A stretch of 47,620 nucleotides of DNA from a virus (Duplodnaviria; Heunggongvirae; Uroviricota; Caudoviricetes). Under the pieces are notes generated by a model that searched no databases, was not told where the DNA came from, and saw only the letters and a list, made by a program, of their open reading frames with translations. The stretch is from IMG/VR virus record IMGVR_UViG_3300033076_000838, positions 239,836-287,455 of that record. One strand, given 5' to 3'. Positions 27,727-31,593 of this stretch are shown in pieces. Numbering within the stretch: the first letter of the stretch is position 1; each line of letters opens with the position of its first letter. The position numbers and the translations under genes are program-made.

Positions 27727-27777
27727 TTTCTAAAAGACATACTTATTCTCAAATAGTTATAACAAAAACCCAAATTA

Positions 27778-28080
27778 ATGAGCGGATTATCAAGAGTTAC
27801 GGTCGAAGTTCGTAATGGAGACATTGCAAAGGCTTTAAAAAAGTTTAAAAAGAAAGTAAACGAATCTGGACATCTCTTAGAATTGAGAGAAAGAAAAGAA
27901 TACGTTAAACCTACTACTAAAAGAAGGTTGACAAAACAAAAAGCTGTTAGAGAGGAACAAAAAAGAGTTGCTCTTATGAAAATGGCAGATGGTGATAGAA
28001 CTATACGTTTTTTCACTAAAAAAAGAAAGAAAAAGGGTAAAGAAGAACAAAAACCCCAAAAAGATAAAAATTTTGAATAA
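27778..28080 (+). CDS. rpsU: Phage-encoded 30S ribosomal protein bS21 with a basic C-terminal extension
   Basis: VEVRNGDIAKALKKFKKKV..SG.LLELRERKEYVKPTTKRR matches the bS21 consensus (ALRRFK...Y.KP...R). Confidence 0.92.
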   Translation: MSGLSRVTVEVRNGDIAKALKKFKKKVNESGHLLELRERKEYVKPTTKRRLTKQKAVREEQKRVALMKMADGDRTIRFFTKKRKKKGKEEQKPQKDKNFE

Positions 28081-28284
28081 AATTTTTTAAAAAATGTAAT
28101 AAATTTAATGTTTCTATAAACATTTATATATTTATTTTCAAATAATCCACCTCTATTGTGGATTTAAAATTAAAATGTTGGTTAATGAATACCCATTCTT
28201 ATGAGGTGACCGAACAACTAACCTAACACATTCTATTGAAAATCTCCCTTAATATTTTCAGAAAAAGTAAAGGAAAGTAAACAA

Positions 28285-29367
28285 ATGGCAAATTCAAAAT
28301 TGTTAAAAGATGCAATTGCTGATGCTAAAGCCGTACGTGAAACTGCTATTGCTAACGCTAAAATCGCATTAGAAGAAGCTTTTACTCCAAGATTACAATC
28401 AATCTTATCTAAGAAATTACAAGCCGAAATGGAAGGTGATGACGAAGAAGCTGATGTAAATGAAGAGTATGGTGCTGATGATGTTGATGCAACTGATTCA
28501 TCAGAAATCGGTGCAGGTGAAGGACAAGATGGTAGTGGAACTGATGGTGATGAGCCGCAAGGTATCGCAACTGATGCTCACACTGAATTAGGTGACACAG
28601 AAAAAGAAACAGCTGAACCAGGTAAAGAGGATGAAAACATGCCTCTTGCAGAAGGTGAAGATGAAGAAGTAAATGAGGAAGAAGAAACTCAGGTACAAGA
28701 AGAAGATGAAGACGAGTTAGATTTAGAATCTATCATCAGAGAATTAGAAGACGAGTTGAGTGAAGAAGAATCCGAAGTAGGATACGAAGACCCAACAAAT
28801 GCAGATGATGCATCCGTTTCTGAAGAAGATGAAGCTGAAGCTCCAGCAGTTGAAGAAGAGGAATCAGAAGAAGCTGCAGAAGTATCAGAAGAAGATGAAA
28901 TCGACTTAGAAGAAATCTTACGTGAAATGGGATACGGAGATGATGAAGAAGTAAACGAAGAAGGTGAAGAAGAAGAATCTAATAATGTAGCAGAAATGGA
29001 AGCAGAATTAGAAGAAGCTTACAAAGTAATCAAATCTTTGAAATCTACAATCAACGAAGTAAACTTGTTAAACGCAAAATTACTTTACACTAACAAATTA
29101 TTCCGTTCTTATGATTTAACAAATGAGCAAAAGCACAAAGTTGTTGAAACATTAGACAGAACTCAAAATGTTAGAGAAGTGAAATTAGTTTTTGCAACAT
29201 TAGCTGAATCGATGAAAATCGGTGGTACTGCTAAGAAAGTAAAAACAAACAAAATAACTGAATCATTCGCATCTAAGAAAGTTGCTTCAACTGCACCAAA
29301 GGCTGCAATTATCAACGAATCAAACGATATGGCTGAAAGATTTAAGAAGTTAGCAAATATTAAATAA
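28285..29367 (+). CDS. Prohead core scaffold protein (gp22-like by position and composition)
   Basis: Very acidic, many VNEE/VSEE/LAE sites, C-terminal MAERFKKLANIK, immediately upstream of the major capsid gene. Confidence 0.8.
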   Translation: MANSKLLKDAIADAKAVRETAIANAKIALEEAFTPRLQSILSKKLQAEMEGDDEEADVNEEYGADDVDATDSSEIGAGEGQDGSGTDGDEPQGIATDAHTELGDTEKETAEPGKEDENMPLAEGEDEEVNEEEETQVQEEDEDELDLESIIRELEDELSEEESEVGYEDPTNADDASVSEEDEAEAPAVEEEESEEAAEVSEEDEIDLEEILREMGYGDDEEVNEEGEEEESNNVAEMEAELEEAYKVIKSLKSTINEVNLLNAKLLYTNKLFRSYDLTNEQKHKVVETLDRTQNVREVKLVFATLAESMKIGGTAKKVKTNKITESFASKKVASTAPKAAIINESNDMAERFKKLANIK

Positions 29368-29401
29368 ACAAAAAACAAAATTCTAAGGAGAGAAAAATAA
29401 A

Positions 29402-31021
29402 ATGGCAAATTTTAATTTATCTAAACTTATGGAAGGCAAGAACCCACAATCAGTAATGTTGGCTGAAACACGTCAATTGAAGAACAAGTGGGAAAAAACT
29501 GGTCTTTTAGAAGGTTTAAAAGAAAGAGAGCAATCTCAAGTAGCAGTTCTATTAGAGAACCAAGCTAAACAATTATTGGATGAAGCAACAGCAACTGGTA
29601 CTTCTGCTGGTTCAGAAGAGTGGTCTGGTGTTGCATTACCATTGGTAAGACGTATTTTTGGTGAAATTGCAGCGAAAGAATTCGTTTCAGTTCAACCAAT
29701 GAACTTACCATCAGGTCTTATCTTCTATCTAGATTTCAAATACGGAACAGCAGTACAAGGTGCTACTAAGTTTAATGGTAAATCATTATTCGGTGGTAAT
29801 GGTACTTCTAACTTCGATGGTGACTTCGGTAGAACTAAGGCAGCAGTAAACGGTCTTTATGGTGAAGGAAGATATTCTTACACAATCAACGACCAATCAG
29901 TATCAGTATCAACTGGTAACCAAACATATGCAACTGCATCATGGGCAGAAGTAAAGTATGATTCTGCATTATCTTCATCAGTAGCAGCAGGTACATTAGC
30001 AAAAATTACAATTGCTAAAGCAAATATCAACTCTGCGGCTGATTTCGATGCTGTACGTTCATTCCACATCTCTGCATCAGGTTTCTCTGCAGCAGATACT
30101 TTCTACCCAGCACACTCTAGCTATGATGGTACTAACGTAACATTCTTCGCTAAAGTTGCGACAGTAGCTACACCAACTGCATTGACAGTTAAGTATTCTT
30201 TGGCTCCAACTTCTACAACAAGAGGTGATTTCGAAGATGCTAACCCAACAGAACCAGCAACTGACATCGCTATTCCAGAAGTTGATTTGGAATTACGTTC
30301 AGAGGCTATCGTTGCTAAGACTCGTAAGTTAAAAGCAGTGTGGACTCCTGAATTGGCACAAGATTTAAATGCTTACCACTCAATTGATGCAGAAGCTGAA
30401 TTAACTTCTATGTTATCTGAATATATCTCATTAGAGATTGACTTAGAAATCTTAGATATGTTAAAAGCTAACGCTTTAACAACTGAATACTGGTCAGCAA
30501 CAATCGGTGAAGAGTACAACTCTACAGCAGGTACTTGGTCAGCAGGTTCTTCTTCATTAGCATACCAAAAAAATACTTGGTTCCAAACTTTGGGTACTAA
30601 GATTAACAAAGTATCTAATAAGATTCATCAATTAACATTGAGAGGTGGTGCAAACTTCATCGTTGTATCTCCAGATATCGCAACTATCTTAGAATCAATT
30701 CCTGGATTCGTAGTGAACGCTGATAAAGATGCAGCTTCATTCGCAGCTGGTGTATCTCAAGTAGGTTCATTAGCATCTCGTTACACAGTCTACAAAAACC
30801 CATACATGACTTCTAACGAAATCTTGTTAGGTTTCAAAGGTTCTAGTTTCTTAGAGACTGGTGCTGTGTACGCTCCATACGTTCCATTGATTATGACTCC
30901 ATTAGTGTACGACCCAACTAACTTCACGCCAAGACGTGGTGTTATGACTCGTTACGCTAAGAAGATGGTCCGCCCAGAATTCTATGGCAAGATTTATGTT
31001 AAAGATTTGGCTTCAATCTAA
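29402..31021 (+). CDS. Major capsid protein (T4 gp23-like)
   Basis: LLENQ, PLVRR, VQPMNLPSGLIF, AKTRKLKAVWTPELAQDL.AYH..DAEAEL, YAPYVPL, GVMTRY. Predicted maturation site LLDE61|A, analogous to T4 gp23 E65|A66. Confidence 0.97.
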   Translation: MANFNLSKLMEGKNPQSVMLAETRQLKNKWEKTGLLEGLKEREQSQVAVLLENQAKQLLDEATATGTSAGSEEWSGVALPLVRRIFGEIAAKEFVSVQPMNLPSGLIFYLDFKYGTAVQGATKFNGKSLFGGNGTSNFDGDFGRTKAAVNGLYGEGRYSYTINDQSVSVSTGNQTYATASWAEVKYDSALSSSVAAGTLAKITIAKANINSAADFDAVRSFHISASGFSAADTFYPAHSSYDGTNVTFFAKVATVATPTALTVKYSLAPTSTTRGDFEDANPTEPATDIAIPEVDLELRSEAIVAKTRKLKAVWTPELAQDLNAYHSIDAEAELTSMLSEYISLEIDLEILDMLKANALTTEYWSATIGEEYNSTAGTWSAGSSSLAYQKNTWFQTLGTKINKVSNKIHQLTLRGGANFIVVSPDIATILESIPGFVVNADKDAASFAAGVSQVGSLASRYTVYKNPYMTSNEILLGFKGSSFLETGAVYAPYVPLIMTPLVYDPTNFTPRRGVMTRYAKKMVRPEFYGKIYVKDLASI

Positions 31022-31505: not shown

Positions 31506-31522
31506 AAAAAAGTGGTAAATAA

Positions 31523-31554
31523 TTTGGAAATATCAAATAAATTACCTATATTAG
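31523..31554 (+). promoter_or_regulatory. Second Bacteroidetes-type promoter
   Basis: TTTG 31523, 20-nt spacer, TATATTAG 31547. Confidence 0.7.
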
Positions 31555-31593
31555 CTTTGTAATAAGAGATAAACAATTTAAACCATAAAAGAC

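What the first reader, a model, noticed from the sequence alone, without database searches (positions are those of the whole stretch)
27739..28080. Phage bS21 may unmask the host anti-Shine-Dalgarno: a translational late switch
Seen: bS21 sits between cargo genes and scaffold, has its own late motif (27739), no SD, and a long basic tail. After KP it reads KPTTKRRLTKQKAVR. Known: bS21 genes near structural genes in large phages have been described. In Bacteroidia, bS21/bS18/bS6 form a pocket that hides the anti-SD, involving a C-terminal bS21 Tyr (KAxY, Y54 in Flavobacterium johnsoniae). By my manual alignment the phage has R (KAVR) at that position, resembling SD-using bacteria. Inference: SD-less bS21 mRNA is translated by native ribosomes, and the protein replaces host bS21, frees the anti-SD and redirects ribosomes to SD-bearing phage late mRNAs.
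Basis: partly seen in the sequence, partly recalled or inferred. Interest (0 to 1): 0.85.

Follow-up and report, generated by a model that had tools for sequence, protein, structure and literature searches.

The report
Phage bS21 lacking the anti-SD tyrosine
A 287-kb phage of Flavobacteria-type bacteria, whose ribosomes normally ignore Shine-Dalgarno (SD) sites, makes its own ribosomal protein bS21 with arginine in place of the tyrosine that hides the ribosome's SD reader, and many of its virion genes carry SD sites; a ribosome-retuning switch is plausible and testable, but wider comparison supports it only weakly.

Summary
Window 27778-28080 (+) encodes a 100-aa bS21 (Pfam 7.5e-15). Arg58 aligns without gaps to Tyr54 of Bacteroidia bS21. 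The leader has no SD, the tail is long and basic, and a degenerate late-promoter motif lies 39 nt upstream.

The host is Bacteroidia-like: 17 exact copies of a TTTGG-N19-TTCGTATNTTTG early promoter, all on the coding strand, and a cultured Flavobacterium phage (immuto) as relative. AAGGAG-type SDs sit before 43% of late-promoter-proximal genes and 6% of early ones. They are absent from immuto, which has no bS21, and from the Tyr-type bS21 phages sampled.

The mechanism is not shown. Published Y54A ribosomes of F. johnsoniae translate strong-SD mRNAs about 3-fold better, which makes it plausible. Against it:
- Only 5 phylogenetically independent contrasts exist, and they show no significant link.
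- Close complete relatives with Arg-type bS21 have few SDs (10% and 22%).
- Arg is native in other Bacteroidota classes.

The SD-rich clade also shares a C-terminal extension.

The scan has flagged the same pattern in several other phage genomes. I found no paper proposing it. Verdict: real feature, new variant of phage bS21, anti-SD unmasking about 35% likely.

The parts
27739..27747 (+). Degenerate late-promoter-like motif ATACTTATT, 39 nt before the bS21 start
   Evidence: The genome-wide late motif TATTTATA lies 25-40 nt upstream of many structural genes. The same alignment column holds a perfect TATTTATA in relatives L008, L009 and L019, and ATATTTATT in L010-L012.
27748..27777 (+). SD-less, A-rich leader of bS21
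   Evidence: Best duplex with CACCUCCUUUCU is +1.0 kcal/mol. The leader is conserved as an A-rich, SD-free sequence in L006-L012.
27778..28080 (+). Phage bS21 gene (100 aa)
   Evidence: PF01165 7.5e-15 and TIGR00030 3.8e-13. There are 125 relatives at E<=1e-3 in the protein collection. The AF2 model shows helices 16-30, 32-41 and 47-70 and a disordered tail.
27949..27951 (+). Codon AGA = Arg58, the Tyr54-equivalent position
   Evidence: Ungapped alignment from the KP anchor to host KAxY sequences and HMMER alignments to PDB chains. Arg is at least 90% conserved in the subfamily.
27952..28077 (+). Long basic C-terminal extension (residues 59-100, 15 K/R and 8 D/E; core ...ADGDRTIRFFTKKRKKK...)
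   Evidence: Extensions of this type occur in every bS21 of the SD-rich clade. They are absent from the short (58-80 aa) Arg-type bS21 of basal SD-less relatives. pLDDT is below 70 from residue 71 onward.
28128..28137 (+). Late-promoter-like TATATTTATT downstream of bS21, probably serving the scaffold-like and capsid genes
   Evidence: Conserved in all seven aligned relatives.
28147..28166 (+). Conserved hairpin (ATCCAC-loop-GTGGAT), followed by a conserved ~100-nt leader
   Evidence: Compensatory changes in L009 and L010-L012. No Rfam family matches.
28285..29367 (+). Acidic scaffold-position gene with an SD-like AAAGGAAAG upstream
   Evidence: Duplex -6.5 kcal/mol. It occupies the gp22 position before the gp23-like gene. 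No family hit.
29385..29390 (+). AAGGAG SD-like element, 11 nt before the capsid gene's ATG
   Evidence: Duplex -8.2 kcal/mol. An AAGGAG or AGGAG element is conserved at this place in 27 of 29 syntenic Arg-type relatives, although the surrounding leader diverges.
29402..31021 (+). Major capsid protein (gp23 family)
   Evidence: PF07068 6.6e-78. 53% identical to the capsid protein of Flavobacterium phage immuto.
20330..27726 (+). Head module upstream of bS21 (portal 20764, prohead protease 24373, unassigned head genes), most with AGGAG or AAGGA 8-11 nt before the start
   Evidence: SD energies of -5 to -7.4 kcal/mol for genes 20330, 24108, 24373, 24979, 25439 and 26683. PHROG assignments.

Best explanation
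The gene encodes a phage-specific bS21 variant with Arg at the Tyr54 position and a long basic C-terminal extension. It is made late in infection from an SD-less, host-style leader that ordinary, anti-SD-masked host ribosomes can read. Inferred steps: the protein enters host 30S subunits in place of host bS21 or on bS21-free subunits. Without the Tyr that stacks on A1534, and with a different C-terminal region, it no longer holds the 16S 3' tail in the bS21/bS18/bS6 pocket. The freed anti-SD can then pair with the AAGGAG-type sites that precede the abundant head and tail genes and raise their initiation rate. Shown: gene identity, the residue, the SD dichotomy and the host-type promoters. Inferred: incorporation, anti-SD release and the benefit to late mRNAs.
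For: (1) bS21 identity and Arg58 = Tyr54. (2) Bacteroidia-type host. There are 17 exact TTTGG-N19-TTCGTATNTTTG promoters on the coding strand, against 0 and 1 for the reversed control. This matches the sigma-A consensus TAnnTTTG of Flavobacterium (PMC9723704). The nearest cultured relative infects Flavobacterium. (3) SD dichotomy within one genome: 43% of late-motif-proximal genes against 6% of early-promoter-proximal genes have a duplex of -6 kcal/mol or stronger. G content peaks at -12 to -8 only in late leaders. (4) The capsid-gene SD is conserved while its flanks diverge. (5) bS21 is the only one of the three pocket proteins that the phage encodes; no bS18 or bS6 was found. (6) Experiment in the literature: F. 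johnsoniae bS21 Y54A or deltaC ribosomes translate strong-SD mRNA 3- to 5-fold better, and SD-less mRNA equally or worse (PMC9976891). (7) Phage immuto has the same head gene order and the same TATTTATA motif but no bS21. Only 7% of its genes have SD-like leaders and its capsid gene has none. The Tyr/Phe-type phage loci sampled show no positional G peak. (8) Raw counts for the capsid gene: non-aromatic bS21 45 with SD and 13 without; aromatic 3 with and 9 without.
Against: (1) On the capsid tree only 5 independent contrasts exist. SD state follows bS21 type in 0.3 of them, goes the other way in 0.7 and does not differ in 4.1. By locus-wide SD fraction the figures are 1.8, 0 and 3.2, with p 0.25-1. 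The raw association is therefore largely shared ancestry. (2) Complete relatives with the same early and late promoters and Arg-type bS21 have few SDs: late-proximal 10% in G001 and 22% in G410. Basal Arg-type relatives (L060, L064, L143, L151, L158, L160, L137) have none. (3) Arg is native at this position in 27 of the 34 best Bacteroidota-phylum hits and in 2 of 26 in the class sample. Chlorobia lack Y54 yet are SD-poor (PMC9976891). So Arg need not free the anti-SD, and Arg can itself stack on a base. (4) In the published work a weak SD (AGGA) gave no gain in Y54A cells. The phage sites are 5-7 bp, which is intermediate. (5) Some non-late genes carry SDs, for example the DnaB-like helicase. 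(6) The true host and its bS21 are unknown.
Confidence: 0.35

Rival explanations
1. Ribosome supply or maintenance without a change of specificity. The phage bS21 keeps 30S subunits replete during the late burst of synthesis, for example when host rpsU expression collapses. The SD-like sites work through something else, such as a transient pool of bS21-free subunits or another phage factor.
For: Arg-type bS21 is kept in related phages with almost no SDs (G001, L060, L064), so its main role cannot depend on SDs. bS21-free F. johnsoniae ribosomes already favour SD mRNAs (PMC9976891). Chen et al. read their phage bS21 as a host mimic (PMC9723584).
Against: This does not explain why the subfamily has lost the otherwise conserved Tyr and gained a conserved extension. 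If the phage keeps ribosomes replete, bS21-free subunits should become rarer, which works against the SD-led late genes.
Confidence: 0.25
2. Specialised ribosomes that do not act through the anti-SD. The divergent N-terminal helix or the basic C-terminal extension contacts phage leaders (A-rich or structured) at the mRNA exit site and favours them regardless of SD pairing.
For: The extension (...GDxxIRF(F/Y)TKKRKKK) is the feature that best tracks the SD-rich clade. Al-Shayeb et al. and Chen et al. proposed that extensions or divergent helices give mRNA preference (PMC7162821, PMC9723584). A conserved structured leader follows bS21.
Against: No shared leader motif other than the SD-like one was found in late genes. 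The tail is predicted to be disordered. G001 has a related extension but no SDs.
Confidence: 0.2
3. Host match. The real host belongs to a minority lineage whose own bS21 has Arg and whose ribosomes can use SDs to some degree. The phage copy then simply resembles the host's, and SDs mark highly expressed genes as in ordinary bacteria.
For: Two of 26 typed bS21 in the class sample and most in the phylum sample carry Arg. Two Tyr-type phages with SD-rich loci (L188, L199) lack the Bacteroidia-type promoter, which shows that SD use varies with host.
Against: None of 15 genes directly behind host-type promoters has an SD, and the -12/-13 A-rich signature typical of SD-independent Bacteroidia is present. 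The phage core motif ELRERKEY matched only Bacteroidia genomes across 185,579 species. The best bacterial identity is about 54% or less.
Confidence: 0.12
4. Extraribosomal role. A small, very basic protein encoded among the head-core genes is packaged or acts as an RNA or DNA chaperone during head assembly.
For: Its position between head-module genes and the scaffold-position gene, and its high positive charge.
Against: The bS21 core is strongly conserved, with 12 invariant positions across the subfamily. In G001 and G410 the gene sits away from the head module.
Confidence: 0.05

Closest known systems
bS21 of freshwater Bacteroidetes myoviruses (Chen et al. 2022, ISME Commun, PMC9723584)
   Same: A phage-encoded bS21 close to structural genes. 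It is expressed late, the hosts are Bacteroidota, and replacement of host bS21 is proposed.
   Different: All 61 of their proteins keep Tyr, His or Phe at position 54 and were read as host mimics. Their gene lies on the reverse strand. Here the residue is Arg, the gene is co-oriented, the protein has a long basic extension, and the late genes carry SDs. The Tyr-type loci I sampled have none.
F. johnsoniae bS21 Y54A and deltaC mutants (McNutt et al. 2023, NAR, PMC9976891; structure in Jha et al. 2021, PMC7797042)
   Same: Loss of the Tyr54-A1534 contact, or of the C-terminal region, frees the anti-SD and raises translation of strong-SD mRNAs. This is the mechanism proposed for the phage protein.
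   Different: Those are laboratory mutants of the host gene. The phage has Arg, not Ala, plus about 40 extra residues, and its effect on the 3' tail is untested.
Pelagibacter phage HTVC008M bS21 (Mizuno et al. 2019, cited in PMC9976891 and PMC7797042)
   Same: A T4-like phage bS21, shown to enter E. coli ribosomes in vivo. This is the only direct evidence that phage bS21 can be incorporated.
   Different: The host is an alphaproteobacterium with no anti-SD sequestration. tblastn of the window protein found no match at E<=1e-3 in 50,697 phage records.
Flavobacterium phage vB_FspM_immuto (MW353175)
   Same: The same head gene order (terminase, portal, protease, acidic scaffold-position gene, gp23-type capsid gene), the same TATTTATA motif before late genes, and 53% capsid identity.
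   Different: No bS21 gene is annotated or found, and late genes have A-rich leaders without SDs (7%).
Francisella bS21 paralogues (PMC9578407)
   Same: Alternative bS21 proteins that change which mRNAs the ribosome translates.
   Different: They are chromosomal paralogues in a gammaproteobacterium, with specificity through leader features and no anti-SD sequestration.

Membership tests
Ribosomal protein bS21 (PF01165 / TIGR00030) | Profile match above the curated cut-offs | tested here: met
   54.8 bits against 27 and 49.1 bits against 28.95.
Ribosomal protein bS21 (PF01165 / TIGR00030) | Small basic protein of two or three helices joined by a coil | tested here: met
   AF2 model with helices 16-30, 32-41 and 47-70, mean pLDDT 76.5. 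Foldseek gave only weak bS21 and mitochondrial bS21 matches (E 0.4 or worse).
Ribosomal protein bS21 (PF01165 / TIGR00030) | Sits on the 30S platform next to the 16S 3' end | not testable with these tools
   Needs 30S mass spectrometry or cryo-EM.
Bacteroidia-type, anti-SD-sequestering bS21 | Tyr54 (KAxY) stacking on A1534 | tested here: not met
   Arg58 occupies the position. 23 of 26 typed class-sample bS21 have Tyr.
Bacteroidia-type, anti-SD-sequestering bS21 | Ile55 contact and a short, weakly basic C-terminal region | tested here: not met
   Glu59 follows Arg58. The tail is 42 residues with net charge +7, whereas host proteins end 8-12 residues after the Tyr.
Phage bS21 clades of Chen et al. 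2022 | Aromatic residue at position 54 | tested here: not met
   Arg here. 59 of the 80 nearest IMG/VR phage bS21 also have Arg.
Phage bS21 clades of Chen et al. 2022 | Gene placed among structural genes and expressed late | tested here: inconclusive
   Placement is met. Only a degenerate late motif is present here, though it is perfect in relatives. There are no expression data.
Phage bS21 clades of Chen et al. 2022 | Bacteroidota host | tested here: met
   Host-type -33/-7 promoters and a Flavobacterium phage relative. No CRISPR link was tested.
Functional Shine-Dalgarno sites (late genes) | Complementarity to the 16S 3' tail at a fixed distance from the start codon, independent of promoter distance | tested here: met
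   G peaks at 28-35% at -12 to -8. GGAG ends 4-8 nt and AGGA 5-10 nt before the ATG in 426 leaders of SD-rich loci. This includes genes inside operons.
Functional Shine-Dalgarno sites (late genes) | Pairing with the anti-SD raises initiation | not testable with these tools
   Needs reporters or toeprinting.

The most novel reading that the evidence does not exclude
A phage-encoded ribosomal protein switches the SD-blind Bacteroidia ribosome into an SD-reading one late in infection, creating a private translation channel for virion mRNAs. The bS21 mRNA itself is read only by unconverted ribosomes. In sister clades an AGGAGA abutting the ATG may even repress it once the anti-SD is free, which would give built-in feedback.
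Probability: 0.3. Interest if true: 0.85.

Novelty: new variant of a known kind. Interest (0 to 1): 0.62.

Why it matters
Phage-encoded bS21 is the most common ribosomal protein in viruses, yet no function has been shown for it. This work defines a large phage-specific subfamily: 59 of the 80 nearest viral loci. It has lost the one residue known by experiment to keep the Bacteroidia anti-SD hidden, and in one clade it co-occurs with SD-led virion genes in an otherwise SD-free setting.

If the link is causal, it would be the first case of a virus changing the mRNA-selection rule of the ribosome by swapping a ribosomal protein. It would also explain why SD-blind Bacteroidia keep an intact anti-SD. 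The needed tools already exist: F. johnsoniae genetics, reporters, PURE-type translation and cryo-EM.

My comparison also sets limits. Arg at this position is neither sufficient for SD use nor statistically tied to it once ancestry is considered. The C-terminal extension therefore deserves equal attention.

Tried and rejected
- tblastn of the protein against 50,697 phage records found nothing at E<=1e-3 and only marginal hits at E<=10.
- Foldseek of the AF2 model against the PDB gave no match at E<=0.001. The sequence alignment is therefore the basis for residue equivalence.
- The phage tmRNA searched against 401 Bacteroidota genomes gave only 40-50-nt matches in 4 genomes. Three of those carry Tyr-type bS21. 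This is too weak for host assignment.
- The generic pattern TTTG-N18-21-TAnnTTTG on fragmentary relatives (L077, L060, L136, L149, L025) did not exceed its reversed control. Their host class stays open.
- treekit.origins gave no taxonomy for the G handles.
- Rfam gave no family for the bS21 flanks. The sigma-70 and terminator scan gave nothing above shuffles on the plus strand.
- My first regex typing of the Tyr54 column was wrong. It was replaced by an alignment column or a stricter anchor.
- I first read the 27-of-29 capsid-SD result as a clean correlation. The larger capsid-centred sample and the independent-pairs test removed that reading.
- No complex prediction was run, because bS21 is held in the ribosome mainly by rRNA.
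- One genome of the class sample (G501) is unpublished. Only the tally of 114 matches in 121 genomes touches it.

Full report
**What is there.** The window is the last 47.6 kb of a 287,455-bp IMG/VR virus record. CheckV rates it 100% complete, and its GC content is 31%.

ORF 27778..28080 (+) gives a 100-aa protein. It matches Ribosomal_S21 (PF01165, 7.5e-15) and TIGR00030 (3.8e-13), both well above their cut-offs.

The gene lies in a T4-like head module:
- terminase, 18696
- portal, 20764
- prohead protease, 24373
- three unassigned head genes
- bS21, 27778
- an acidic protein in the gp22 scaffold position, 28285
- a gp23-type capsid gene, 29402

**The residue.** From the KP anchor the phage reads KPTTKRRLTKQKAVR. 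Four Bacteroidota bS21 read KPS-(10 residues)-A-x-Y in the same ungapped register: Tenacibaculum, a Flavobacteriales MAG, Crocinitomicaceae and Saprospiraceae. All four were found by a pattern scan of 185,579 species.

HMMER alignments put Arg58 opposite the Tyr of 9i5v_9 (QKAIY), residue 54 of F. johnsoniae 7jil_z, and a Lys in E. coli.

Arg is at least 90% conserved in the protein's own family. It is present in 59 of the 80 nearest viral loci. The others have 19 Tyr, 3 Phe and five other residues. Chen et al. reported only aromatic residues in their 61 phage proteins (PMC9723584), so this is a different, large subfamily.

**Host.** The genome carries a repeated promoter of the form TTTGG-N19-TTCGTAT(A/C)TTTG. 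It has 17 exact copies, all on the coding strand, against 0 and 1 for the reversed control.

This is the -33 TTTG / -7 TAnnTTTG sigma-A consensus of Flavobacterium and Bacteroides (PMC9723704). Chlorobaculum has a different -7 box (bioRxiv 10.1101/172254).

Further signs of a Bacteroidia host:
- The nearest cultured capsid relative is Flavobacterium phage immuto, at 53% identity.
- Leaders are A-rich around -12 and -13.
- The phage tmRNA tag is GVNNYALAA.

I take the host to be a member of Bacteroidia, probably Flavobacteriales-like. The species and its own bS21 are unknown.

**Promoters and the bS21 leader.** A second motif, TATTTATA, is concentrated in intergenic DNA. 34 of its 55 plus-strand copies lie in the 8% of the genome that is non-coding. 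It sits 25-40 nt before structural genes, and phage immuto has the same motif.

Before bS21 the motif is degenerate (ATACTTATT at 27739). At the same alignment position relatives have ATATTTATT or a perfect TATTTATA. The bS21 leader has no SD; its best duplex with the 16S tail is +1.0 kcal/mol.

**The SD dichotomy.** Genome-wide there is no SD enrichment: 15% of leaders reach -6 kcal/mol, against 16% at internal ATGs. The enrichment is local:
- 43% of late-motif-proximal genes have an SD, against 6% of early-promoter-proximal genes.
- None of the 15 genes directly behind host-type promoters has one.
- The 260-280 kb bin, which is the head module, reaches 52%.

The sites are AAGGAG, AGGAG or AAGGA, ending 8-11 nt before the ATG. 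They also occur inside operons, which points to translation rather than transcription.

In relatives, the capsid-gene site is kept while the surrounding leader diverges. Pooled leaders of SD-rich loci show a G peak of 28-35% at -12 to -8.

The SDs are not exclusively late. An endolysin gene has one, but so does a DnaB-like helicase gene.

**Why the mechanism is plausible.** In F. johnsoniae, Tyr54 stacks on A1534 where the 16S tail turns into the bS21/bS18/bS6 pocket (PMC7797042). Y54A and deltaC ribosomes translate strong-SD mRNAs 3- to 5-fold better, and SD-less mRNAs equally or worse (PMC9976891).

The phage encodes bS21 but neither bS18 nor bS6. Those authors and others proposed that phage bS21 replaces the host protein. 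I found no paper proposing anti-SD release by a Tyr-less phage bS21.

**Comparative test.** The first results looked clean:
- 27 of 29 syntenic Arg-type relatives have the capsid SD.
- The syntenic Tyr-type L077 has none, and neither do the distant Tyr-type phages.
- Phage immuto, which has no bS21, has none.

I then fetched 80 capsid-centred loci and typed bS21 by alignment. Raw counts still lean the same way: non-aromatic bS21 45 with SD and 13 without, aromatic 3 with and 9 without.

On the capsid tree, however, bS21 type changes only 5 times. The independent-pairs test shows no significant co-variation.

Counter-cases exist in both directions:
- Arg-type phages without SDs include L060, L064, L139, L143, L151, L158, L160 and L137.
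- The complete genomes G001 and G410 share both promoter types with the window phage. Their late-proximal genes carry SDs in only 10% and 22% of cases.
- Two Tyr-type phages, L188 and L199, have SD-rich loci. Their records lack the Bacteroidia-type promoter (0 copies in 103 kb and 157 kb), so they probably infect other hosts.
- The 484-kb phage LR756508 has the same synteny, Met at the position and no SDs.

At best, then, a non-aromatic residue permits SD use. It does not predict it.

**A second correlate.** Within the window's lineage, every bS21 of the SD-rich clade has KPT/KPK and a 30-45-residue extension of the type ...ILxKIxDGDTxIRF(F/Y)TKKRKKK. The basal SD-less Arg-type relatives have short proteins of 58-80 aa with KPSV. 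G001 has a variant extension without the RF(F/Y)TKK core and has few SDs. The extension is predicted to be disordered.

**Is Arg foreign to the host group?**
- In a sample of 401 Bacteroidota genomes the best hits are about 54% identical or less.
- 27 of the top 34 carry Arg (KAIRR...). These are presumably non-Bacteroidia classes, with locus GC of 0.30-0.66.
- In a sample of 121 genomes of the class of Tenacibaculum, 23 of 26 typed proteins have Tyr, 1 has His and 2 have Arg.

Tyr is therefore the rule in Bacteroidia, but Arg is native elsewhere in the phylum. McNutt et al. note that Chlorobia lack Y54 yet are SD-poor. This is a real caveat to equating Arg with a free anti-SD.

**Verdict.** The unmasking model is coherent and rests on a published experiment. 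It explains an otherwise puzzling SD dichotomy in this genome. It is unproven, though, and broader comparison supports it only weakly. I put it at about 35%, ahead of each single rival.

The scan has reported the same pattern in several other phage genomes. I treat those notes as leads, not as independent evidence.

Noticed in passing
window 28120-28284: Conserved leader of about 160 nt between bS21 and the scaffold-position gene. It has a late-type TATATTTATT, a hairpin at 28147-28166 with compensatory changes in relatives, and two further conserved stems. No Rfam family matches.
   Followed up: partly
L013, L017, L018, L020, L022, L024-L027, L032, L034, L042, L043 (bS21 starts): In sister clades the bS21 gene has A(A/T)AGGAGA directly abutting its ATG (17 loci, 13 distinct leaders). 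That is too close for a canonical ribosome-binding site. It could block initiation once the anti-SD is free, giving feedback.
   Followed up: partly
L013-L043 and window 27952-28077: A C-terminal extension (...DGDTxIRF(F/Y)TKKRKKK) is shared by all bS21 of the SD-rich clade. It is missing from the short Arg-type bS21 of SD-less basal relatives.
   Followed up: partly
G006 (Tenacibaculum skagerrakense), G288, G172: Flavobacteria-type genomes carry 2-4 bS21 paralogues each.
   Followed up: no
G000:C1:158113-165179 (outside the window): A block of 25 tRNA genes plus a tmRNA with tag GVNNYALAA.
   Followed up: partly
window about 31520-31571, and six other places in G000: A repeated host-type promoter variant ending TATATTAGCTTTGTAATAAGAGATA (7 copies). 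One copy sits inside the late region, before the SD-less gene 31594.
   Followed up: no
L209 (LR756508.1 164719-174883): A 484-kb 'huge phage' has the same bS21, scaffold-position gene and capsid gene order. Its 79-aa bS21 has Met at the Tyr54 position, and neither the scaffold-position gene nor the capsid gene has an SD.
   Followed up: partly
L250, L271 (genomes G492, G454): Two genomes in the class sample have a native Arg-type bS21 (KNRAIRRQE), unlike the other 24 typed. Their identity is unknown.
   Followed up: no
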